Positions 548 through 63,897 of a stretch of DNA of 64,000 bases are shown in pieces. The DNA lies in NCBI RefSeq assembly GCF_006345805.1, contig NC_043007.1, positions 33,046,001-33,110,000 of the forward strand, given 5' to 3'. The number at the start of each line of letters is the position of its first letter. Positions within the stretch are counted from its first letter, which is position 1. Made by a program: the position numbers and the translations under genes. Source of the DNA: Octopus sinensis. Its lineage: Eukaryota. The notes below the pieces were generated by a model. It saw nothing but the letters and a program-made list of their open reading frames with translations. It ran no database searches and was not told the DNA's origin.

Positions 548-1135
548 ATGTATGTATGTGTATATATATATAAATATACACATATATACACACACATATA
601 TACACACACATATATATATCTATACACATATATGCATGTATATATATTCGTATACACCTTCATGTACATGCATTCACACACATGCATACACACAATTTTA
701 TTTGTATATATATATATATGTGTGTGTGTATGTATGTGTGTGTGTTTCCGCCATTGTGTATGTGTGTGTATGTATTTATATATACACACAAACACACCCC
801 CAACACACATACAAACATACACACAAATGCACACACACATATCCGCCAGACACACACACACATACAAACACACACGCACACGAACACAAACACACATATA
901 TACACATGCATATATATCCATGTGCACATGCATGTGTGTGTGTTAGTACGCATTTGTACGTGTGTACGCATGCGCATGGGGGTAGGAGCGAGTGTGGTTG
1001 CGCGCGTGTGTACCTCTATGCTGAGTGTGTTTTTGTGCATGAGCGCATGTTTCTGTGTGCATGTGTGCATGTGTGTATGAGCATGTATGAGTGTACGTGT
1101 GCCTGTATATGAGTTTGTATGAGCGGATGTGTGTA
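485..1135. repeat. Compound (TA)n/(CA)n/(TG)n microsatellite
   Basis: Direct inspection; explains the Y/I/H/T/C/V-rich ORFs. Confidence 0.95.
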
Positions 1136-1490
1136 GATTAGCTGTACGCCAGTTCGTTAATATTCGTGTCCATTTTAGTAATTCATTCATATTCCTGCAC
1201 ATTGAACAAGTCTGGTGATAATGGTGATAAATACTATTAAACGATACATTTGTTTGGATTAATATACGACCAGAGTTATTAATGTTAGTCTGCATATTTA
1301 TGAAATTCTATTTTATCTTACTGGAAACAATTTCTCTGAGTTATACTAATGCTCAGATAAAGCAGACGATGTCGGCGACGACAATTTTGTACGATGTCTG
1401 ATAGCAAAGCGGTAAGATGCCCAAGTCTTGTTGACAACAGAATGTCGTCGGCAGCCTTTCATTTATTGTTGTCTCAAGTAATGGTTTTTG

Positions 1491-1802
1491 TTTAGCCCAA
1501 GGTCAGACCTCATTGGGCTGAGTTATGATTCAAAGAAATTCTAAATTTGGCCATCTCGCATTTGTTCTTCCTCCACAGAAGTAGAAGTGCTGCAAAAGTA
1601 GTCGTGACGATAGGACGTTGGATCATCAAGTTTTGTTATTGCGTGACGTTGCTGCTCTTTAGCTCCAGGTCAGGTCAACCTTGTTTAAATAAAGTTATGA
1701 TTCAAAGGAATTCCAAACTTGGTCATCGCGCACTGGATCTTCTTTCACAGAAGTAGAAAAGCTGAAAAGATAGCATTGATGATAGGATGTTAGAGCATCA
1801 AA
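1491..1802. repeat. Diverged ~170-bp tandem duplication
   Basis: tttagc..ggtcag..gttatgattcaaag..cacagaagtagaa..gatagga..catcaa occurs twice (from ~1491 and ~1659). Confidence 0.6.
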
Positions 1803-1810
1803 CGTTTCTT

Positions 1811-2040
1811 ATTTCTTTATTGCCCACAAGGGGCTAAACACAGAGAGGACAAACAAGGACAGACAAAGGGATTAAGTCGACTACATTGACTCCAGTGCGT
1901 AACTGATACTTAATTTATCGACCCCGAAAGGATGAAAGGCAAAGTCGACCTCGGCGGAATTTGAACTCAGAACGTAACGACAGACGAAATACCACTAAGC
2001 ATTTCGCTCAGCGTGCAAACGTTTCTGCCAGCTCGCTACC
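1811..2040 (-). mobile_element. SINE family B (GGCGGCGAGCTGGCAGAAACGTTAGC... head)
   Basis: Same ~225-bp sequence recurs >10 times; contains B-box-like GAGTTCAAATTCC. Confidence 0.85.
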
Positions 2041-2477
2041 TTATACATATACATTATATCAGCAACAACAAAAATGGAAAACGTACTTTACTTCTCCTTT
2101 GCTTCAAGATTCATTACATCCTATTACAGTTTGTGCGATTTAGAACAAAAATTGAAATTGAATCCTTGTACACATTTCCCTCGATAATTATTCAAGAATT
2201 TCCAATTATCAACAAGGTGGAAATGTTACTTTCTCAAATAATGAATGAACTATACACTGATAATAGTCATATCAAAAAAAAGACATTTTCTTATTCAATT
2301 ATTTCATCAAAATTGAAATTTCATTGATAAATATAAATTCAACACACTTATTATTTCTCCTTGTTTTGTGTGCTTTACACATATATTACTAAAGACATCA
2401 GAATAACAAAGGTATTTTTTTTCCAAGTAAATGGATGAATCTATTACTTTCATAAGGGAATTAAATTGGTAATTGTG

Positions 2478-2860
2478 TGAGGCTGTGTGATTAGAAGTCT
2501 TCTTCGTAACTATATGATATTGTGTTCAGTCTCACTGCGTGGCATCTTAGGCATGTGTCTTCTGCTATAGCCTCAGGTCGGCGAAAGTCTTGTGAGTGGA
2601 TTTGGTAGATGGAAACTGAAGGAAACCCGTCGAATATGTGTGTGTGTGAGTGTTTGTGTGTGCGCGCGTGCGTATCTTGTTGTCTGTGTTTGTTACCCAG
2701 CACTGTTGGACAATTGATAGTAGTGTGTTTACATCCTCGTAACTTAGCGTTTCGGTAAAAGAGAAAGATGGAGTTAAGGACCAGTCTGGAATAAAATAAA
2801 TATAAGTAATGGAATCGATTCATTTGACAAAAAAATTTTGATCTCAGTCCAGTGAGTAAA
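2478..2860 (+). mobile_element. SINE family A (tRNA-derived, internal TA/TG microsatellite), diverged
   Basis: Similarity to intact copies at 16829 and 56017. Confidence 0.75.
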
Positions 2861-3160
2861 AAAGATCTTGGAACGTAGAATTAATAAGACATCTGCTGAT
2901 ATATCTTTGCGTTATCTATAAGAGGTATTGATTATCTCAGAACGAACTCCCCAGTTAACTAGGCTCTCCGTGAGGCATCTGCGTTATGTATGACACACAG
3001 ATTGCTATTTTAGATAAACACTGCTTCTGTTGCACGCATCGAATTTTTATTCAGCCAGCCGGCTCATTGCAACGTCAGAGATTTTCCAATTACTATTTCC
3101 CTATACCAAAGACGGCGGATTTTATCTTCGCATGCGGTTGCCTGTGGGTACTTGCGATAT

Positions 3161-3212
<52 letters not shown>

Positions 3213-3214
3213 GG

Positions 3215-3564
3215 GTAAAGACCCCTTCGGTCATGAAGGACCATGGGATTGCACCTAGAAAGTTACCCTCCTAGACACAGGTCCGGGCAAGGTTGTTTAT
3301 GGAAGGCTAGCAGTCGCCCATGCATACCAGCCTCCCCTCTCCACGCCACCAGTGTTATCCAAGGGAAAGACAAAGGTCGATACAGCTTGGCACCTGTGAC
3401 GTCGCAACTCATTTCTACAGCTGAGTGAACTGGAGCAACGTGAAATAAAGTGCCTTGCTCGAGAACACAACACGCAGCCCGGATTCGAGCTCACAACCTC
3501 ACGATCGTAAGCTCGACGCTCTAACCACTGAGCCATGCGCCTTCACTGAGCCATGCGCCTTCAC
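3215..3564 (-). mobile_element. SINE family C (tRNA head)
   Basis: Minus strand TGGCTCAGTGG A-box and GAGCTCGAATCC B-box-like; copies at 10525 and 45275. Confidence 0.85.
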
Positions 3565-3587
3565 ATATATATATATATACATATATT

Positions 3588-3621
<34 letters not shown>

Positions 3622-4159
3622 TATATGTATGTATGTATTTATGCATATACACACACTCGCACATATCCAATCAATAACTATGAAAGTATGAAAGATTTAA
3701 ATCATTCAGTGACGACCGAACAGGACTATTGCAGATATCGTGTTGCGTTCATAATTAGTGACAAGATGTTATGCGTCTGCGGTAAATATATAACTGGCAG
3801 GCAAGATAAAAAGACACGCTGCTCTAATAGGATTTTCCCGAGAGTAGAATATCTACCAGGAATAATTCTGTATAAATAGTCAGTTTCTTAAGTATGTATT
3901 CGTATTAGCTGAGTGGATATGTGTGTAATTTACTAGAAAACTGATAAATTTGTTGTCCGTTCTCTCGATGTATTCAGTCTCCTGCTCTATCGTTCTTTCT
4001 CGCCCTGTTGTTATCTTTTCCATTTTGTTTCCTCCTATTTCGCACTGGATTCTTTTTTCAATCTCCTCCTTCTGTCTCTCTTTCTCTCTGTACTCGTACA
4101 CATATCCATGTGCGATTGCATGTAAATAGATATACGTATACGTTTATAAATATATAAAA

Positions 4160-5071: not shown

Positions 5072-5258
5072 TAAGCAATTAAGGGTTTAGCAACGAATTG
5101 CCTTACCACACACCGAATTTAGAAATAGCAGTCAAAGAGATTATAGCTATTTCTTCTACTAAAAGGAAGATCACAGTAAAGGCACAGCATTTGAAAGGCA
5201 AACACAAACAGGTAAAAGAGAATGAATTAACGGCAATCTATCATACAGTTTTAAGTCA

Positions 5259-5350
5259 TCTACGGACGTACGTTTCGAGATCAAGTCTTAGGAAAGCATA
5301 AGAATTAGATAACTCTACTTTACCCAGACTTCTTCTTTCATCAGCGCAGG
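5259..5350 (-). ncRNA. Type I hammerhead ribozyme, unit 1
   Basis: cctgcg-CTGATGA-long stem II-GAAA-cgtac-GTC-cgtag. Confidence 0.85.
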
Positions 5351-5836
5351 ATACTAACAATCATGAATGATTGAATATTGAATTTTGAGATACTAGAAGG
5401 CACCAACTCAACTCAGTATCAGAGCGAGCTAGAAGCCACAGCTAGTATCACCAAATTCAAAGTATGAATGAAAGCTTGTGTCACCAGTCCCTTCCCACCG
5501 CGTGTAGCCAAGACAAAGTGCTGTGGTCATTTACTGGATGAATATGGTTTATGAGTAACAATGAAGGGTGAAATTAATTTGGAACATTATCAATTACACC
5601 AAGTAGTCTTCGGCATGTAAAAGCCTCATTCGAGGAAAATTTAAGTAATTCTAAGCAATTAAGGGTTTAGCAACGAATGCCTTACCACACACCGAATTTA
5701 GAAATAGAGTCAAAGAGATTATAGCTATTTCTTCTACTAAAAGGAAGATCACAGTAAAGGCACAGCATTTGAAAGGCAAACACAAACAGGTAAAAGAGAA
5801 TGAATTAACGGCAATCTATCATACAGTTTTAAGTCA

Positions 5837-5927
5837 CCTACGGACGTACGTTTCGAGATCAAGTCTTAGGAAAGCATAAGAATTAGATAATTCTACTTTA
5901 CCCAGACTTCTTCTTCATCAGCGCAGG
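5837..5927 (-). ncRNA. Type I hammerhead ribozyme, unit 2
   Basis: Same motif, intact core. Confidence 0.87.
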
Positions 5928-6421
5928 ATACTAACAATCATGAATGATTGAATATGAATTTTGAGATACTAGAAGGCACCAACTCAACTCAGTATCAGAG
6001 CGAGCTAGAAGCCACAGCTAGTATCACCAAATTCAAAAGGGAATGAAAGCTTGTGTCACCAGTCCCTTCCCACCCGCGTGTAGCCAAGACAAAGTGCTGT
6101 GGTCAGTTACTGGGTGAATATGGTTTATGAGTAACAAAATGAAGGGTGAAATTAATTAATTGGACACAATTATCAATTACACCAAGTAGTCTTCGGCATG
6201 TAAAAGCCTCTTCGAGGAGGAAATTTAAGTAATTCTAAGCAATTAAGGGTTAGCAACGAATTGCCTTACCACACACCGAATTTAGAAATAGCAGTCAAAG
6301 AGATTATAGCTATTTCTTCTACTAAAAGGGAGATCACAGTAAGGCACAGCATTTGAAAGGCAAACACAAACAGTATAAAAGAGAATGAATTAACGGCAAT
6401 CTATCATACAGTTTTAAGTCA

Positions 6422-6512
6422 CCTACGGACGTACGTTTTGAGATCAAGTCTTCGGAAAGCATAAGAATTAGATAACTCTACTTACCCAGACTTCTTCTTT
6501 CATCAGCGCAGG
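6422..6512 (-). ncRNA. Type I hammerhead, unit 3 (GAAA read as AAAA)
   Basis: gtacgttttg instead of gtacgtttcg: a G12A mutation or a sequencing error. Confidence 0.7.
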
Positions 6513-7005
6513 ATACTAACAATCATGAATGATTGAATATTGAATTTTGAGATACTAGAAGGCACCAACTCAACTCAGTATCAGAGCGAGCTAGAAGCCA
6601 CAGCTAGTATCACCAAATTCAAAGTATGAATGAAAGCTTGTGTCACCAGTCCCTTCCCCCCGCGCGTGTAGCCAGACAAAGTGCTGTGGTCATTTACTGG
6701 GATGAATATGGTTTATGAGTAACAATGAAGGGGGTGAAATTAATTAATTTGGAACAATTATCATTACACCAAGTAGTCTTCGGCATGTAAAAGCCTCATT
6801 CGAGGAAAATTTAAGTAATTCTAAGCAATTAAGGGTTTAGCAACGAATTGCCTTACCACACACCGAATTTAGAAATAGCAGTCAAAGAGATTATAGCTAT
6901 TCTTCTACTAAAAGGGAGATCACAGTAAAGGCACAGCATTTGAAAGGCAAACACAAACAGGTAAAAAGAATGAATTAACGGCAATCTATCATACAGTTTT
7001 AGTCA

Positions 7006-7095
7006 CCTACGGACGTACGTTTCGAGATCAAGTCTTAGGAAAGCATAAGAATTAGATAACTCACTTTACCCAGACTTCTTCTTCATCAGCGCAGG
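7006..7095 (-). ncRNA. Type I hammerhead ribozyme, unit 4
   Basis: Same motif, intact core. Confidence 0.87.
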
Positions 7096-7634
7096 ATACT
7101 AACAATCATGAATGATTGAATATTGAATTGAGATACTAGAAGGCACCAACTCAACTCAGTATCAGAGCGAGCTAGAAGCCACAGCTAGTATCACCAAATT
7201 CAAAGTATGAATGAAAGCTTGTGTCACCAGTCCCTTTTAGTAGAAGAAATAGCTATAATCTCTTTGACTGCTATTTCTAAATTCGGTGTGTGGTAAGGCA
7301 ATTCGTTGCTAAACCCTTAATTGCTTAGTATTACTTAAATTTTCCTCGAATGAGGCTTTTACATGCCGAAGACTACTTGGTGTAATTGATAATTGTTCCA
7401 AATTAATTAATTTCACCCTTCATTGTTACTCATAAACCATATTCATCCCAGTAAATGACCACAGCACTTTGTCTTGGCTACACGCGGGTGGGAAGGGACT
7501 GGTGACACAAGCTTTCATTCATACTTTGAATTTGGTGATACTAGCTGTGGCTTCTAGCTCGCTCTGATACTGAGTTGAGTTGGTGCCTTCTAGTATCTCA
7601 AAATTCATATTCAATCATTCATGATTGTTAGTAT

Positions 7635-7724
7635 CCTGCGCTGATGAAGAAGAAGTCTGGTAAAGTAGAGTTATCTAATTCTTATGCTTTCCTAAGACTT
7701 GATCTCGAAACGTACGTCCGTAGG
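7635..7724 (+). ncRNA. Type I hammerhead ribozyme, inverted unit
   Basis: Stem I cctgcg(7635-40)/cgtagg(7719-24); CTGATGA 7641-47; stem II aagtct..aaagta/tgcttt..agactt; GAAA 7707-10; palindromic cgtacg; GUC 7716-18. Confidence 0.88.
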
Positions 7725-8020
7725 TGATAAAACTGTATGATAGATTGCCGTTAATTCATTCTTTTTTACCTGTTTGTGTTTGCCTTTCAAATGTTGTGCC
7801 TTTACTGTGATCTTCTTTTAGTAGAAGAAATAGCTATAATCTCTTTGACTGCTATTTCTAAATTCGGTGTGTGGTAAGGCAATCGTTGCTAAACCCTTAA
7901 TTGCTTAGAATTACTTAAATTTTCCTCGAATGAGGCTTTTACATGCCGAAGACTACTTGGTGTAATTGATAATTGTTCCAATTAATTAATTTCACCCTTC
8001 ATTGTTACTTATATATCTAT

Positions 8021-8971: not shown

Positions 8972-8976
<5 letters not shown>

Positions 8977-9136
8977 GAGTAATTGAATGAATCATCTTAT
9001 TAAGGATAATCGAAAGATAACCGATTACATGGGTACTCCTTATTCCTCGGAATTAGGAATATGCAGCCTTCGAAACATATGTCGAGAATAAAGGATACTT
9101 GTTAACTAGTCGTTCAACTCCATTCTTTCATATACT

Positions 9137-31899: not shown

Positions 31900-33531
31900 G
31901 ATTCGAATTGAAGATTTCTTGCACCAAGGTTTTAATGCAGAACACACAGAAAACATGGTACTGCAGACATTAATTGTTTAGCAACTGGGCTGCCTGAACC
32001 TATTGGAGTACCTCAGCTTGATCATCGTGAAGACCTCGATCACCCATGCATTGCAACACTTACTAATGAACAAAGACAGTTTGCTAATGCTGTGCTTGAA
32101 TCTGTAGATAAAAAAGAGGAGAGGTGAGATGCCCAACCACTCCTGTTTCTATGCAGATGCACCAGGAGGTTACTCTTTACTTACTTGTTTCAGTCATGTG
32201 ACTGGAGCCATGCTTGAGCACCGCCCTTAGTCGAGCAAATCGACCCCAGGACTTATTCTTTGGAAGCCTAGTACTTATTCTATCGGTCTCTTTTGCTGAA
32301 CCGCTAAGTTACGGGGACGTAAACACACCACCATCGGTTGTCAAGCGATGTTGGGGGGACAAACACATACACACAAACATACACAGACACTCATACACAC
32401 ATACATGTATATGTTTACATATATACGACAGGCTTCTTTCAGTTTCCGTCTACCAAATCCACTCACAAGGCTTTGGTCGGCCCGAGGCTATAGAAGACAC
32501 TTGCCCAAGGTGCCACGCAGTGGGACTGAACCCGGAGCCATGTGGTTGGTAAGCAAGCTACTTACCACACAGCCACTCCTACGCCTGTGGTAAAACTTAT
32601 GTTTAATACCATAATTTGTTATCTGCGAAGGAACAACTGCAACATGTGCAGTGGTGCTTGGACAGGCATTGCCTTTACACTACTGTCAGGTGGAAAGACT
32701 ATCCATAGTTTGTTCAAGTTGCCTGTCCCACTCACGGATGCTAGTGTTTGTAATGTACCAGCCACTTCAGACCATGCAAATTATTTACGAAACCTGGATT
32801 TGATCATCTTGGATGAGGTTTTTATGATCCCTTCATTTGCACTTCATGCTTTTGATAGATCTTTGCAAGATATCACTAGCATTGCTGCTGTTTTTGGTGG
32901 TAAATTTATGCTCTTGGGAGGAGACTTTAAGCAAGTCCTACCCATATTGCTAAGAGGAGCTCGTGAGGCAATTATTGAAATCTGTATTAAAAATTCTCCT
33001 CCATGGCTGAATTTCATCCAATACAGATTAAGCCAGATCAACTGCAGATCAAAGGGAATTTTCAGCATGGCTCTTGTATCTTGGCAACGGAACATATGCA
33101 GCTCCACAAGATTCTAATCTTGCTGTTGATGACATAGAAGTGCCTCATATTTCACGCGTTGACGGCTCTCTGATGGATGATATCTTCAACAATACATCTG
33201 CGGAAGAAAGAAGAAGCAGTCATTTTTACGCCAAAGAACTAAGACTGCTTCCTGATCTATGAAGAAGTTTTGAGACAACTTCCAGGTGACTGCTGCACCT
33301 GTTATAGTACAGATAAAGTTTTGACCGATGATCTTGCTGAGGCTGAGCGCTATCCACTTGAATTTCTTGAACTCTTTGACACCATCAGGAATGGCGCCGC
33401 ATAAATTGAGTTTAAAACCCAGCTCAATAGTAATACTTCTTCGTAACATTTCTATCCAGAATGAACTTTTCAATGGTACAAGACTGGAAGTGGTGGCCAT
33501 GCATCAACATTCAATCGAGGCTTCCTTGATT
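31900..33531 (+). pseudogene. Helitron Rep/Helicase PIF1-like helicase fragment (frameshifted, SINE-interrupted)
   Basis: DAPGG|CGKT Walker A, AWTGIA, GKTIHSLFKLP, LIILDE, LLGGDFKQVLP, FLNSLTPSGMAPHKLSLK, NGTRL motifs. Confidence 0.9.
32171..32586 (-). mobile_element. SINE family A inserted in the helicase Walker A
   Basis: Full-length SINE between gga ggt and tgt ggt aaa act. Confidence 0.92.
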
Positions 33532-37526: not shown

Positions 37527-37915
37527 AAATACAGTAGGGTATCAGAATACCACTTGCTAGAAAAAGGAGCTAACACCCCAAAACCACAAATTTCTCACTA
37601 TTAATAAATACGCACGGTGAATGCAACGGATATAATAGAATAGGCTTACCTTGTATAAACTGCAAAAGCAAGAAACAGATATCCTGGTATCAATTGATTT
37701 CACCTTTTCTACCTTTGTAATGAAGCATCGTCAGCCAGACTCACTGTATTCATCTATTTTTGAAAATATTCATCACATTACACCATGCGTATTCATTAAT
37801 AGTGAGAAATTTGTGGTTTTGAGTGTAGTTCCTCTTCCCAGCAAGTGATATTCTGATAGCCTACTCTATTTATTTGTATATTTTACCTATATAGGTTAAA
37901 CTTGCTGGCCATTTT
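37527..37915. mobile_element. Inverted-arm HHR element
   Basis: ~95-bp arms at 37527-37622 and ~37773-37871 enclosing the HHR. Confidence 0.78.
37684..37738 (-). ncRNA. Type I hammerhead ribozyme
   Basis: ctgg-CTGACGA-t-gctt..aggt-GAAA-tcaattga(palindrome)-TA-ccag. Confidence 0.75.
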
Positions 37916-40660: not shown

Positions 40661-41302
40661 AACTCTTTAGCATTCCGATTTTTTCTAACAAATCTAATGC
40701 TTTGTCATTCATATTGTTTTGAATTATTCATGCATTATCTTGTAGCTTGGAGATTTCAGTGATATGACTGTTTTTTTAGAGTGACTTTATGTTTGAGACG
40801 CCAAATCTGACCATTTTGAATATAAAACAGGTAGAATATTTGGGCCAAAATAAGGTTTGAACATGAAAGGGTTAAACGCAGAAAATAGAGCTAATATGCG
40901 AACAAAAACAAACGAATAAAAAATATAACACTAAACTCTAGAGTACCTAATCTACGGTTGTAACATTCTCAATTGGGTGTTAAATGAATCAACAAGATTA
41001 GACAAGAAGGCAAAAAATACAACAAAAATAGCTGCCATTGAAACGCACCATCCCAAAATTTAGCATAGAATATCTATATTTACTATGAATGCGGTGAAAT
41101 GGTTGCTTTATACAAGTTAAAGTACTTGAACAAAATATCAATTGTGGGAATTCTCAAAACAAATTGTTATTAACAGTAATGGTAAATAATTAAATAAAGG
41201 TTGAACCATATGGGATGACTCAATATAGACTAATACATTTAGCAGAGAGAAACCGCGCGGAAACTACTTGTGTGTGTATACACACACAGACACACACACA
41301 CG

Positions 41303-41367
<65 letters not shown>

Positions 41368-41370
<3 letters not shown>

Positions 41371-41770
41371 GAAAGAATGGAGTTGAACGACGAATTAACA
41401 AAATTCCTTTATTTTCGACATATGTTTCAAAGGCTGCATATTCCTAATTTCGAAGGAATAAGGAGTGCATTATGCCGCCTTCTCATCAGGAAAAACAAGG
41501 AACTTATGTCAGCATCAAGATGAACAAAAACTTTTAGATGACTGCCAACACGGAGCCCATAGCGAGAATAAAGGAATTTTGTTAATTCGTCGTTCAACTC
41601 CATTCTTTCATTTATTTGTATTAAAAAAACACACAAATTTCCACACGAAAGCACATGATCTCTGCCCTTGGCATGTAGCTTCAACCGTGTTTTTCTGGCG
41701 TGAGTTTGCTACCCAGGTATCGGTTAACCGAATTATCCATAATAAGACAATTCATTCAACTACTCAAATA
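41368..41770. mobile_element. HHR element with inverted segment in (TA)n
   Basis: 41368-41416 is the reverse complement of 41564-41612. Confidence 0.82.
41412..41494 (-). ncRNA. Type I hammerhead ribozyme
   Basis: ttttc-CTGATGA-gaaggc..gccttt-GAAA-catatg-TC-gaaaa. Confidence 0.8.
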
Positions 41771-41847
<77 letters not shown>

Positions 41848-41887
41848 TAGCAAAGATTTTTTATGTGAAATCGTGTGTGTGAAACAG

Positions 41888-56433: not shown

Positions 56434-56474
<41 letters not shown>

Positions 56475-56476
<2 letters not shown>

Positions 56477-57205
56477 AATTAAGGACTGAACACGAAAAGT
56501 GGACAGTGAACATGCTAGATATAGACGTCAAATCGCCATTCTCCACAAAATATTATGTTCTCAGATCAAACTCAGCACAAAACCATAGCAATAAACAAGT
56601 GAAAATATACGAAATAAAATAATTACCCATGTACTAATCAGTTTCGGCTGTTATTTACCACAAGGAAAACTGCAGCCATCATCAGCATGGTCCGTTATAA
56701 ATGCAATTTGCTGGACTAGATGCAAACACGATACCGAAATATTGCGTGCATGGAGTTCAGCCTATTACATTTGAATATATCTTTCAAATGCCTTTACTTT
56801 GGCACGTTGAGACCCGAGAAAACTAGCCTGCAGCTAATAATTAGCAGCAGTCAATTTATCGGTTAGAGAACATATTTATTTATATAAAATTAATTAAGGG
56901 TAGAAATTGATATTTATCAATTAAGACCAGTGGTCTAGCATATTAAAAAATAATCCGAAGATTAAAATATTTATATATACCAATTAAGGACTGAACACGA
57001 AAAGTGGACAGTCAACATGCTAGAAATATACGTCAAATCGCCATTCTCCACAAAATATTATGTTCTCAGATCAAACTCAGCACAAAACCATAGCAATAAA
57101 CAAGTGAAAATATTTATCGGTTAGAGAACATATTTATTTATATAAAATTAATTATGCTAGACCACTGGTCTTAATTGATAAATATCAATTTCTACCCTTA
57201 ATTAA
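56475..57205. mobile_element. HHR element: 505-bp unit, partial tandem copy and inverted tip, in (TA)n
   Basis: ccaattaaggactg at 56475 and 56980; 57154-57205 is the reverse complement of ~56890-56941. Confidence 0.85.
56627..56690 (-). ncRNA. Type I hammerhead ribozyme
   Basis: ccatg-CTGATGA-t-ggctg..cagcc-GAAA-ctgatta-GTA-catgg. Confidence 0.88.
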
Positions 57206-57522
57206 TATATATATATATATAACGTGAGCGTGTTTGCGCGCGCCTGCGTTCATATATGTACACAACAATTTCTCTAGTATATTGTCTGCCTATCTATTTA
57301 TCGGCACATTGTTTTTGTTCTTGTTAATTCATCTACCAGTGCATACACACATACACACACACAACCCCATATTTTTTCTCTATGTATATACACATACACT
57401 CACACACACTACCTCTGTCTCTTTTTCTTCTCCTCTCTTCTCTATCTTTCTCTCATTTAAATTCATACAACTACACACACAGATATACCACACACACACA
57501 CACACATACACACATACATACA

Positions 57523-57692: not shown

Positions 57693-57948
57693 TATATATA
57701 TATATTGTATATATATATATATATATTATATATAAATTAATCAATTTAGGGTAGCAAAAATTCAGTAAAAATTATCGCTACCACGGCTGGTGGAAAAGAC
57801 AAAATAGTCAAAGACTAAATAGATTAAATATAACAATTTAGGAATGGCCGAAACAGGCCATTCGTCCCAGAACAGAGCAGCCAGAACCCAACCGCCAGTA
57901 GTGACATTCGGAATAAGGTGAAAATTTAAAAAAATTTACCCTAATTCA

Positions 57949-58048
57949 TCTTTTATACGATGCATCGTTTCAGTGTCTTTAATGATAGCACCAGCTTAAT
58001 TAAATTAAATTAAGTAGTCTACCATAGGTCACATTCATCAGTAAAAGA
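57949..58048 (-). ncRNA. Type I hammerhead ribozyme, unit 1
   Basis: tctttta-CTGATGA..GAAA-cgatgcatc-GTA-taaaaga. Confidence 0.83.
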
Positions 58049-58413
58049 AACCTGGGAGAGACGGATATACACGAGGCGACGTATCAATGCCTCGGGAATA
58101 TCTGTTTAAAATTTTCAAGACCAACGCATTCGCGCAAACTTATCGGCAGCAAATATAAAACTGCCGATTCAATCTCAGAATTAGTCAGAAAATTACAATT
58201 AATAATTTAGGGAGCAAAAAAAATCAGTAAAAATTTATCGCTACCAGCGGCCTGGTGGAAAAGAGAAAATAGTCAAAGACTAAATAGATAAATATAACAA
58301 TTTAGAATGGCCTAAACAGGCCATTCGTCCACAGAAAGAGCAGCCAGAACTCCAACGCCAAGTAGTGTAATTCGGAAATAAGGTGAAAATTTAAAAACAT
58401 TTACCCTAATTCA

Positions 58414-58513
58414 TCTTTTATACGATGCATCTTTCAGTGTCTTTAATGATAGACCAGCTTAATTAAATTAAATTAAGCTAGTCTACCATAGGTCACACTT
58501 CATCAGTAAAAGA
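58414..58513 (-). ncRNA. Type I hammerhead, unit 2 (1-nt deletion in stem III)
   Basis: atctttc versus atcgtttc in the other units. Confidence 0.75.
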
Positions 58514-58879
58514 AACCTGGGAGAGACGGATATACACGAGGCGACTGTATCAATGCCTCGGGAATATCTGTCTTAAAATTTTCAAGACCAACGCATTCGC
58601 GCCAAACTTATCGGCAGCAAATAAAACTGCCGATTCAATCTCAGATTAGTCAGAAAATTATCAATAATCAATTTAGGGTAGCAAAAATTCAGTAAAAATT
58701 TATCGCTACCAGCGGCCTGGTGGAAAAGAGAAAATAGTCAAGACTAAATAGATAATATAACAATTTAGGAATGGCCTAAACAGGCCATTCGTCCACCAGA
58801 AAGAGCAGCCAGAACTCCAACCGCCAAGTAGTGTAATTCGGAAATAAGGTGAAAATTTAAAAACATTTACCCTAATTCA

Positions 58880-58980
58880 TCTTTTATACGATGCATCGTT
58901 TCAGTGTCTTTAATGATAGACCAGCTTAATTAAATTAAATTAAGCTAGTCTACCATAGGTCACACTTCATCAGTAAAAGA
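58880..58980 (-). ncRNA. Type I hammerhead ribozyme, unit 3 (intact)
   Basis: 7-bp stem I; stem II agtgt..atggtagactagcttaatt/aattaagctggtctatcat..acact; palindromic cgatgcatcg; GUA site. Confidence 0.9.
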
Positions 58981-59150
58981 AACCTGGGAGAGACGGATAT
59001 ACACGACGCACACAATCATACACGCACATACATACAAACATACATACACACGTACGTACCTACGTACATACATTGATGCATACATAAAACTACATAATAT
59101 GTGTGAAAGTTGGAATTCCTACACCTCGATTATGATGGAGACACCCACGC

Positions 59151-59195
<45 letters not shown>

Positions 59196-59552
59196 ATTAA
59201 TAAATATAAGGGTAGCAAAAAATTCTAGAAAAAATTTTCCGCTACCAGCGGTCTAGTGAGAAAGAGAAAATAGTCAAAGACTATATAATATACATTCAAC
59301 AATATAAGGAATGGCCATATAGGACATTCGACTCACTAGAAAATTTATGTATACGTATGTGTGCACGTTTGTGTATGTGTGCGCGCTCGTGCGTTGTGTA
59401 TGTGTATGGAATTCTCTTAGCTTCCAGATCCTCCAGTGCTATCATCGTAACGGGCAACGAACCTTCTTCACACATATATATTTATGCGTGAATTATGTGT
59501 TTGCTTGTGTGTATGTGTGTTTGTTTGTGTGCGCGTGTGTGTGTGTGTGTGT

Positions 59553-62872: not shown

Positions 62873-62940
62873 TTCTCATGCCGGGAATCGAACCCGGGCC
62901 GCCTGGGTGAAAGCCAGGAATCCTGACCACTAGACCACAT
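62873..62940 (-). pseudogene. tRNA-Glu(TTC) copy lacking the first 4 nt
   Basis: ATGTGGTCTAGTGGTCAGGATTCCTGGCT-TTC-ACCCAGGCGGCCCGGGTTCGATTCCCGGCATGAGAA; D, anticodon and T arms intact; 5' acceptor strand replaced by (AAT)n. Confidence 0.85.
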
Positions 62941-62972: not shown

Positions 62973-63014
<42 letters not shown>

Positions 63015-63467
63015 GAATATATAGGATTAAGGTAACTCTTCCAGAAGATATAGAACAAAAAATAGAAGAGTGCCATTGTTATCAAGTGAACGATATTTCG
63101 ACATCTCGTGTGTCTTCCACAGGTTCAAAAAATAAACTTGTCAATCTTCTTCATTTTGGTTAATTTATCGTTCACTTGACAACAATGGCACTCTTCTATT
63201 TTTGTTTCTATGTCTTTGGATGACTTACCTCAGTCCTATATATATTGACCAAAATGAAGGAGATTCACAAGTTTTTTTTTGAACCTGTGGAAGACACACG
63301 AGATATCGAAATATCGTTCACTTGATAACAATAGCACTCTTCTATTTTTGCTATTATTATTACTACTATTATTATTATTATATTATTATTATTATATTAT
63401 TTTTATTATTATTATTATTATTATTATATTATTATTACTATTATTATTATTATTATTATATTATTAT

Positions 63468-63498
<31 letters not shown>

Positions 63499-63897
63499 CA
63501 TTATTATTTATTATTATTATTATTATTATTATTTATTATTATTATTATTATTATATTATGAATATATAGGATTAAGGTAACTCTTCCAGAAGATATAGAA
63601 CAAAAATAGAAGAGTGCCATTGTTATCAAGTGAACGATATTTCGACATCTCGTGTGTCTTCCACAGGTTCAAAAAATAAACTTGTCAATCTTCTTCATTT
63701 TGGTTAATTTATCGTTCACTTGACAACAATGGCACTCTTCTATTTTTGTTTCTATGTCTTCTGGATGACTTACCTCAGTCCTATATATATTGACCAAAAT
63801 GAAGGAGATTCACAAGTTTCTTTTTTGAACCTGTGGAAGACACACGAGATATCGAAATATCGTTCACTTGATAACAATAGCACTCTTCTATTTTTGC
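63015..63897. mobile_element. Two copies (544-bp period) of an inverted/tandem 146-nt unit with A6U hammerhead-like motifs, in (ATT)n
   Basis: Motifs at 63087-63127(-), 63280-63320(+), 63631-63671(-), 63826-63866(+): tgaac-CTGTGGA-a-gaca..tgtc-GAAAT-ATC-gttca. Confidence 0.8.

What the first reader, a model, noticed from the sequence alone, without database searches (positions are those of the whole stretch)
41368..41770. Inversion junction falls at the predicted self-cleavage site
The minus-strand HHR (41412-41494) would cut GUC|gaaaauaaagg. The plus-strand segment starts at 41563-41564 with (c)gagaataaagg, essentially at the first nucleotide of the 3' cleavage product. The 63-kb family behaves similarly: the plus segment starts within ~4 nt of AUC|guuca at 63166-63170. 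This suggests the reverse-transcribed RNA had a ribozyme-generated 5' end, a genomic fossil of in vivo activity.
Basis: partly seen in the sequence, partly recalled or inferred. Interest (0 to 1): 0.72.

Follow-up and report, generated by a model that had tools for sequence, protein, structure and literature searches.

The report
Penelope arm junction near hammerhead site
Two back-to-back pieces of a very abundant repeat, likely the ends of a Penelope-type jumping gene, are joined at the predicted cut site of a self-cutting RNA motif, but a seven-base overlap between the pieces likely fixed that spot and other copies join at scattered places, so this is at most a weak hint that the RNA cuts itself in cells.

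Summary
Window 41369-41775 is a head-to-head pair of repeat arms in (TA)n. The minus arm carries a well-formed type I hammerhead (C17 at 41417), and the plus arm matches from C17 or the next base.

The reading as a fossil of cleavage is only partly supported. The junction is a 7-nt overlap (41563-41569) that belongs to both arms. The arms' only mismatch lies inside it, so the plus arm most simply starts 3-6 nt after the site.

Among 21 other junctions of the family, 2 start at -1..+5 (0.8 expected, P 0.19): no peak. In the window, 2 of 12 arm ends lie at a site (P 0.07). The 63-kb case has a non-consensus core and keeps C17.

One signal survives: tail-bearing arms pile up at -1..+71 (16 of 21, P 0.0008) and none was seen further upstream, whereas 17 of 21 partner arms cross the site. 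A ribozyme-cut RNA end could cause this; so could one cDNA running into the other. Detection of upstream starts was weak. The scan noted similar two-arm insertions elsewhere in this genome.

The parts
41320..41368 (.). (TA)n microsatellite, left part of the likely target site
   Evidence: sequence; other copies also end in TA runs at this end (loose ends before 41371 and 41376; 9-kb copy)
41369..41569 (-). Arm A: 5'-truncated end piece, 3' end 47 nt after the predicted cut site, spans the intact hammerhead
   Evidence: the family sequence of this arm runs through 41569 (loose ends behind 41569 in 12 and 10 contigs; depth at 41565-41569 with arm B absent from the reference)
41404..41502 (-). 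Type I hammerhead motif: stem I 5+6 bp, CUGAUGA 41489-41483, long stem II, GAAA 41428-41425
   Evidence: 0 of 11 core positions among 35 variable places in family contigs (P 0.03; 4 of 44 variant rows not shown)
41418..41425 (-). Palindromic stem III (8 nt); two copies fold as a double hammerhead with open cores
   Evidence: cofold -63.4 against 2 x -28.7 kcal/mol; prediction only
41416..41417 (-). Predicted scissile bond after C17 (41417)
   Evidence: hammerhead consensus numbering (established knowledge); cleavage not tested
41563..41569 (.). Head-to-head junction: 7-nt sequence shared by the 5' end of arm A and positions -1..+5 of arm B; holds the only mismatch between the arms (41566 against 41414)
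41563..41612 (+). Arm B, part shared with arm A (C17 to +48)
   Evidence: 49 of 50 identical to 41417-41368
41613..41775 (+). Arm B tail, about 160 nt past arm A's 3' end, ending at a second fixed family end near 41769-41775
   Evidence: the 9-kb copy ends at the same place (8973 = 41769); contig depth along it
41776..41842 (.). (TA)n microsatellite, right part of the likely target site
   Evidence: sequence
8973..9131 (.). Second copy of the same family, same two 3' ends, junction at tail +146 and partner arm -49: not at the site
63012..63350 (.). Other family (146-nt unit) in (ATT)n, head-to-head; plus arm starts 1-4 nt upstream of the predicted scissile bond (C17 = 63169); core CUGUGGA; duplicated at 63555-63896

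Best explanation
This is a head-to-head pair of 5'-truncated end pieces of a high-copy hammerhead-bearing repeat in (TA)n, likely copied by a Penelope-type enzyme from both sides of a DNA cut and likely joined where the two copies share seven bases, which here coincide with the predicted cut site. Shown: two arms with two fixed family 3' ends (+47 and about +205 from the site), the 7-nt overlap, scattered junctions in other copies. Inferred: the enzyme primes at both fixed points of one uncut RNA; the cDNA begun at the tail runs into the cDNA begun at +47 and displaces it for up to some tens of bases, so tail arms end in a zone around -8..+71; a minority (2 of 21, 95% interval 1-30%) land within a few bases of the site without any cleavage.
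For: The overlap belongs to arm A's own family sequence and is one of 9 exact matches of 7 nt or more between arm A and the family sense strand, 5 of them in the stretch where tail arms start. The only arm mismatch lies in the overlap, so B-derived sequence most simply starts at +3..+6 (both letters are common in the family, 56-64% against the rest). No peak at the site (2 of 21, P 0.19); within -1..+71 starts are not distinguishable from uniform (KS P 0.65, mean +32, SD 23; 41% chance of none upstream of -4 under a normal fit). 17 of 21 partner arms cross the site, so uncut templates are the rule for that arm. Two near-site junctions keep bases 5' of the bond that the partner arm does not supply. 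In the 6-8 kb and 63-kb families the arm with the longer 3' end crosses a hammerhead site. PMC11167929 (parts 1-2 of 4 read): a purified Penelope-like protein extends both target strands from two internal RNA start sites, ribozyme mutants insert as well, and no RNA-seq reads began or ended at the site. PMC3846280 (passages): inverted pLTR, optional tail, a 15-bp overlap at an inverted junction, a microhomology-mediated 5' junction.
Against: Tail-arm starts stop at about the site (leftmost -1, or -3 to -8 counting letters between) and do not peak at +47 as a simple collision would give. Overlaps at the other family junctions are 0-3 nt, so 7 nt is unusual and needs a free end near the site. Two of six window junctions are near a site (P 0.066). 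The catalytic core is conserved in the family (P 0.03), so the ribozyme likely matters at some step. No coding partner was found, so the Penelope enzyme is inferred from the anatomy.
Confidence: 0.58

Rival explanations
1. The hammerhead cuts the transcript in cells. The tail arm is copied from the 3' cleavage product, so it cannot extend upstream of the site; microhomology joining then trims it by 0-70 nt. The partner arm comes from a second, uncut hammerhead copy further 3' or from another RNA.
For: 16 of 21 tail-arm starts in -1..+71 (P 0.0008) and 4 of 21 in -1..+10 (P 0.045; several windows were tried, so the second value is weak). No inversion with both ends well upstream of the site among the 15 of 38 joints shown or in the complete 2-row table. 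Core conserved; double-hammerhead fold predicted. Precedent: R2 5' junctions follow the ribozyme cut and vary by chance microhomology (PMC3774820, abstract).
Against: Only 1 of 8 junctions known that could have shown as opposite-strand joints reappeared, so that blank is weak. The reference can show tail-arm starts upstream of 41563 only as opposite-strand joints. Junctions at 63 kb and in run X1 keep C17 or GUC. Long-end arms in two other window families cross hammerhead sites. PMC11167929 found cleavage dispensable in vitro; PMC4209133 (parts 1-2 of 4) found low activity of minimal metazoan motifs.
Confidence: 0.27
2. The enzyme tends to stall or switch template on entering the ribozyme fold of an uncut RNA (stem I, then the palindromic stem III), or the RNA simply starts near here by transcription; the ribozyme shapes the junctions without cutting.
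For: The two junctions whose extra bases can be read extend 1-8 nt past the bond into stem III. The longest arm-to-arm match is the stem III palindrome (8 nt). PMC3846280 (passages) reports palindromes at inverted junctions.
Against: Partner arms pass the same fold in 17 of 21 junctions. No cluster at the front edge of the ribozyme here (6 of 21, 4.3 expected, P 0.25).
Confidence: 0.1
3. The pile-up is an artefact of short contigs and of the reference used; junctions are scattered at random and the two window cases are coincidence.
For: Only 21 junctions out of thousands of laid contigs; rows were cut by the tool; alignment edges are clipped at 80% likeness; P 0.066 in the window.
Against: Both arms were read from the same rows, and partner-arm ends spread evenly while tail-arm starts do not.
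Confidence: 0.05

Closest known systems
Endonuclease-bearing Penelope-like insertions with inverted pLTR and optional tail (PMC3846280, passages; PMC8557442, passages; PMC11167929, parts 1-2 of 4)
   Same: Head-to-head 5'-truncated arms, an extension on one arm only, two fixed 3' ends, AT-rich or microsatellite target, hammerhead in the terminal repeat, overlap at the inner junction.
   Different: No reading frame at this locus; the extension is about 160 nt against the 30-40 nt described; junctions have not been mapped against the ribozyme site in the papers that I read.
Minimal and palindromic-helix-III type I hammerheads of metazoan PLEs (PMC4209133, parts 1-2 of 4)
   Same: Type I topology, long helix II, palindromic helix III, G10.1-C11.1 in most family contigs, predicted dimer; opposite-strand pairs 100-700 bp apart are already reported there.
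   Different: Stem I is 5+6 bp, stem II carries a further hairpin, and there is no extra base between A9 and 10.1.
Metazoan non-LTR retrozymes (PMC7229834, passages; 10.64898/2026.07.22.740005, part 1 of 5 and passages)
   Same: Non-coding, type I hammerhead, low GC; the 63-kb, 6-8 kb and 57.7-59 kb families are tandem units.
   Different: The 41-kb locus has one hammerhead and no tandem unit; circular RNA not shown.
R2 elements with a 5' HDV-like ribozyme (PMC3774820, abstract and outline)
   Same: The idea that a ribozyme cut sets the 5' end of inserted copies, blurred by chance microhomology.
   Different: Different ribozyme and element class; there cleavage was shown in vitro and matched the junctions, here there is no peak and no assay.
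LINE-1 twin and dual priming (PMC2837659, passages)
   Same: Two cDNAs primed from both sides of the target give an inverted pair.
   Different: In L1 the second priming point is variable and usually leaves a deletion; here both 3' ends are fixed and the arms overlap.

Membership tests
Type I hammerhead ribozyme | Core CUGANGA, GAAA and NUH in order, three stems, stem I open | tested here: met
   z -3.25
Type I hammerhead ribozyme | G10.1-C11.1 pair | tested here: met
   C at 11.1 in 84-98% of family depth; the window copy has G-U
Type I hammerhead ribozyme | Match to an Rfam hammerhead model | tested here: not met
   none at gathering score in the window or at E up to 5 in 41300-41850; the long stem II may be the reason (inference)
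Type I hammerhead ribozyme | Self-cleavage after C17 | not testable with these tools
   needs an in vitro assay
Type I hammerhead ribozyme (63-kb family) | Core CUGANGA | tested here: not met
   CUGUGGA in 4 of 4 copies; that a change at A6 impairs cleavage is recalled, the one search for it found nothing
Minimal PLE hammerhead | Palindromic helix III allowing a dimer | tested here: met
Minimal PLE hammerhead | Extra base between positions 9 and 10.1 | tested here: not met
   G10.1 follows A9 directly
Endonuclease-bearing Penelope-like element | RT plus GIY-YIG reading frame | tested here: not met
   no Pfam family in the 117-aa frame over the locus; no RT in 17 of the window's 47 frames of 110 aa or more; this locus is a non-coding fragment and no partner was found
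Endonuclease-bearing Penelope-like element | Inverted 5'-truncated terminal repeat, head-to-head | tested here: met
Endonuclease-bearing Penelope-like element | Tail on one arm only | tested here: met
   41613-41775, same ends in the 9-kb copy; longer than the 30-40 nt described
Endonuclease-bearing Penelope-like element | Microsatellite or AT-rich target | tested here: met
Endonuclease-bearing Penelope-like element | Target-site duplication | tested here: inconclusive
   both flanks are (TA)n
Non-LTR retrozyme | Two or more tandem units, each with a hammerhead | tested here: not met
   one hammerhead at 41 kb; no tandem array listed there
Non-LTR retrozyme | Circular RNA | not testable with these tools
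   only contigs were on offer
Ribozyme-defined 5' end (R2 type) | 5' junctions of copies peak at the cut site | tested here: not met
   2 of 21 at -1..+5, P 0.19; small sample
Ribozyme-defined 5' end (R2 type) | Copies of the affected arm never extend upstream of the cut site | tested here: inconclusive
   none seen far upstream, one by 3-8 nt; weak detection

The most novel reading that the evidence does not exclude
The hammerhead of this Penelope-type family cuts in vivo and sorts the two arms: the tail-bearing inverted arm is copied from the 3' cleavage product and is therefore bounded by the cut site, while the other arm is copied from uncut RNA. Thousands of genomic junctions would then be a record of hammerhead cleavage inside the Penelope insertion cycle, a step found dispensable in vitro.
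Probability: 0.27. Interest if true: 0.68.

Novelty: new member of a known kind. Interest (0 to 1): 0.4.

Why it matters
What the hammerhead of Penelope-like elements does is open: PMC8557442 calls it unclear, and PMC11167929 found cleavage unnecessary in vitro and no RNA ends at the site. A family with very many copies and two fixed 3' ends makes the question testable from a genome assembly alone, because the two live explanations tie the edge of tail-arm starts to different landmarks (the cut site, or the partner arm's priming point). The locus also shows a trap: a junction that looks base-exact can be a microhomology that both arms own.

Tried and rejected
No whole genome was held, so the full histogram could not be made. 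Exact-pattern scans found no copy in viral contigs, metagenome contigs or prokaryote genomes. Run search: no RNA holder listed. Loose-end tables (24 of 368 rows, 24 of 218) show no row at the cut site, but single-contig rows stand among the best supported, so the ranking seems to follow depth, and I did not use them as a test. Rows dropped before the count of 21: the joint 41529/41577 (an internal deletion, same depth and side as 41400-41526), the unclear row 41628-41535, and 4 rows of table 5c that repeat table 5; two opposite-strand rows were re-expressed through the inverted arms; if table 5c is a subset of table 5, 15 of 38 joints stayed unseen. Covariation at two stem pairs across four runs is in the right direction but unphased and not significant (r 0.83 and 0.79, P 0.17 and 0.21): not used. 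A cluster of ends at the ribozyme's front edge, noted by an earlier agent in another genome, is not seen here (P 0.25). Other inverted repeats of the window (13, 20, 22, 36 and 43 kb) gave no hammerhead in the scan and were left out; that scan also missed the 6-8 kb motif, which I found by eye, so it is not exhaustive. Earlier notes held nothing for this sequence or place. Searches turned up no paper that maps Penelope inversion junctions against the hammerhead site; the library lacks most subscription papers, and I read no supplements (Fig. S2 of PMC11167929 may bear on RNA ends).

Full report
Setting. The window is AT-rich animal DNA (GC 0.36), full of microsatellites and short repeats. Earlier notes call the genome octopus-like; that fits my recall of its short repeats but I did not test it. 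No whole genome was held.

Anatomy. Between two (TA)n runs lie two arms whose 5' ends meet. Arm A (minus strand, 41369-41569) carries a type I hammerhead: stem I of 5 bp plus 6 bp, CUGAUGA at 41489-41483, a stem II with 10 of 11 pairs and an inner hairpin, GAAA at 41428-41425, an 8-nt palindromic stem III, and GUC with C17 at 41417. The stretch folds better than 200 of 200 shuffles (z -3.25). Two copies are predicted to form a double hammerhead with open cores (-63.4 against -57.4 kcal/mol). Rfam has no match. Arm B (plus strand) matches arm A from 41563 (C17) to 41612 at 49 of 50 bases and runs on for about 160 nt. A second copy at 8973-9131 has the same two 3' ends and a different junction.

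The family. Thousands of contigs from each of three large runs, and hundreds from two others, lie on the element (682-3792 per run; 794-1872); the holders listed belong to four coded organisms. None of 11 core positions is among the 35 variable places listed between 41403 and 41533 (P 0.03; 4 of 44 rows not shown). C11.1 stands in 84-98% of depth, and the listed variant at position 17 is A, which keeps NUH. The motif therefore looks maintained. This does not show cleavage.

The junction is a microhomology. Contigs follow arm A through 41569 and then leave the window sequence (12 contigs in X1, 10 in X3, with the same first 7 loose letters). With arm B left out of the reference there is still depth at 41565-41569 in 4 of 4 runs. 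So 41563-41569 is arm A's own sequence as well as positions -1..+5 of arm B. It is one of 9 exact matches of 7 nt or more between arm A and the family's sense strand. The single mismatch between the arms (41566 against 41414) lies inside it; if both arms came from one template, the B-derived sequence starts at +3..+6 (inference). A cDNA end at 0 that annealed with one mismatch is not excluded, and overlaps at the other family junctions are only 0-3 nt, so this one was probably guided by the overlap.

I read 21 distinct head-to-head junctions from tables 5 and 5c (15 of 38 and 12 of 18 rows shown; 2 rows dropped, 4 repeats). Tail-arm starts relative to the first base of the 3' product: -1, 3, 7, 7, 14, 22, 26, 31, 38, 38, 39, 41, 57, 60, 62, 71, 135, 136, 159, 166, 166. 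Two of 21 fall at -1..+5 (0.8 expected, P 0.19; 95% interval 1-30%). There is no peak. Partner-arm ends spread from -153 to +16, and 17 of 21 lie upstream of the site, so that arm is normally copied through an intact ribozyme. Positions are alignment edges at 80% likeness and may be clipped by some bases.

The window as a whole. Six head-to-head junctions carry a hammerhead motif (6-8, 9, 37.5, 41.4, 56-57 and 63 kb). Two of their 12 arm ends lie within 5 nt of a site, against 0.43 expected (P 0.066; ranges estimated by me). The 63-kb case is weak support. Its unit is only 146 nt; its two copies are one event; its core reads CUGUGGA in 4 of 4 copies (that this impairs cleavage is recalled, one search found no paper); and its junction keeps C17 where the partner arm's reference has A. 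The one family contig that starts at -1 has GT in front of it, that is the whole GUC, and perhaps five more bases of stem III. A cut 3' product would carry none of these.

What survives. Sixteen of 21 tail-arm starts fall in -1..+71 (8.4 expected, P 0.0008), and no inversion with both ends well upstream of the site was seen among the 15 joints shown or the 2 joints. The blank is weak: only 1 of 8 known junctions that could have reappeared did so, most of the others having overlapping or short pieces. Inside the zone the starts are compatible with uniform (KS P 0.65) and with a bell around +32 that by chance does not cross the site (41%). In the 6-8 kb and 63-kb families the arm with the longer 3' end does cross a site.

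Mechanism. Shown: two arms, two fixed 3' ends, a TA target, a shared 7-mer, scattered junctions with a pile-up of tail-arm starts. From papers: a purified Penelope-like protein cuts and extends both target strands, starts at two internal RNA sites that define the tail, works equally with a dead hammerhead, and no RNA-seq reads ended at the site (PMC11167929, parts 1-2 of 4); inverted pLTRs, tails, overlaps and microhomology junctions are typical (PMC3846280 and PMC8557442, passages); minimal metazoan motifs cut poorly and as dimers (PMC4209133, parts 1-2 of 4). Inferred: both arms are primed on one uncut RNA, the tail-primed cDNA meets the one primed at +47 and displaces it a short way, and the ends join by microhomology (0.58). 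The main rival is that cleavage sets the RNA's 5' end and bounds the tail arm (0.27), as in R2 (PMC3774820, abstract). A stall at the fold or a nearby transcription start (0.10) and a sampling artefact (0.05) remain.

Comparison and novelty. The insertion works like the end of an endonuclease-bearing Penelope element, or a non-autonomous derivative; with no reading frame it is not shown to be a member of a named clade, and at this locus it fails the tandem test for a retrozyme. The kind is known; opposite-strand hammerhead pairs in Penelope fragments were reported in PMC4209133. I found no paper that maps the inversion junctions against the ribozyme site, so the arm asymmetry is worth a genome-wide test. 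Earlier agents described two-arm insertions with fixed ends in other pieces of this genome and, in another genome, ends that cluster at the ribozyme's front edge and not at the cut; these are unchecked notes and add no independent support.

Verdict. Observation confirmed; interpretation partly supported; new member of a known kind; interest 0.40. The bold reading, a cut-bounded tail arm, has probability 0.27 and would deserve 0.68.

Noticed in passing
window 41375-41390 (minus) and 41754-41769 (plus); 9-kb copy likewise: Both fixed 3' ends are preceded by the same short motif (TTCAAC, TTCAAT in one end of the 9-kb copy) about 10-16 nt upstream; a candidate signal for where reverse transcription starts.
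   Followed up: no
window 5072-8013: Head-to-head array of a ~585-nt unit (3.7 units minus, 1.3 plus) with a hammerhead motif and palindromic stem III; junction 95 nt downstream and 224 nt upstream of sites.
   Followed up: partly
window 37529-37900, 56474-57221, 57731-59342: Three more hammerhead-bearing repeat families in (TA)n: one simple inversion, one complex tandem with inversion, one 465-nt tandem of 2.7 units plus a solo stub; none ends at the predicted site.
   Followed up: partly
window 63012-63350: The arms are one 146-nt unit plus 11 nt and plus 39 nt, as if each cDNA went once round a circle and displaced a short way; the whole insertion with its (ATT)n flank is duplicated in tandem.
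   Followed up: partly
window 41401-41525 (contig of run X2): A family copy lacks 125 nt that hold the entire hammerhead, with a 3-nt overlap at the deletion.
   Followed up: no
window 41570 / 41410 (loose ends in X2, X4, X6): Well-supported contigs leave the family sequence at +6; in X4 and X6 the 9-10 loose letters would fit a loss of about four bases around the cut site, or another junction. Too short to decide.
   Followed up: no
window 41569 (loose ends in X1, X3): Beyond 41569 the family sequence agrees for about 7 bases and then varies (agreement 0.52-0.59), which may mark a natural 5' boundary about 160 nt upstream of the site.
   Followed up: no
window 41432-41453 (loose ends in all runs): A common subfamily has a different inner hairpin in stem II of the ribozyme.
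   Followed up: no
window 32530-33117 (+): PIF1-like helicase fragment (Pfam PF05970, E 6.5e-35), probably a Helitron remnant (inference).
   Followed up: no
window 62878-62940 (-): tRNA-like stretch (Rfam RF00005, 49 bits) between a short repeat and an (ATT)n run, probably a retroposed fragment.
   Followed up: no
window 5072-8013 and 57731-59009: Tandem units differ by many single-base indels, as expected of uncorrected long-read errors; single-base readings in this window deserve care.
   Followed up: no
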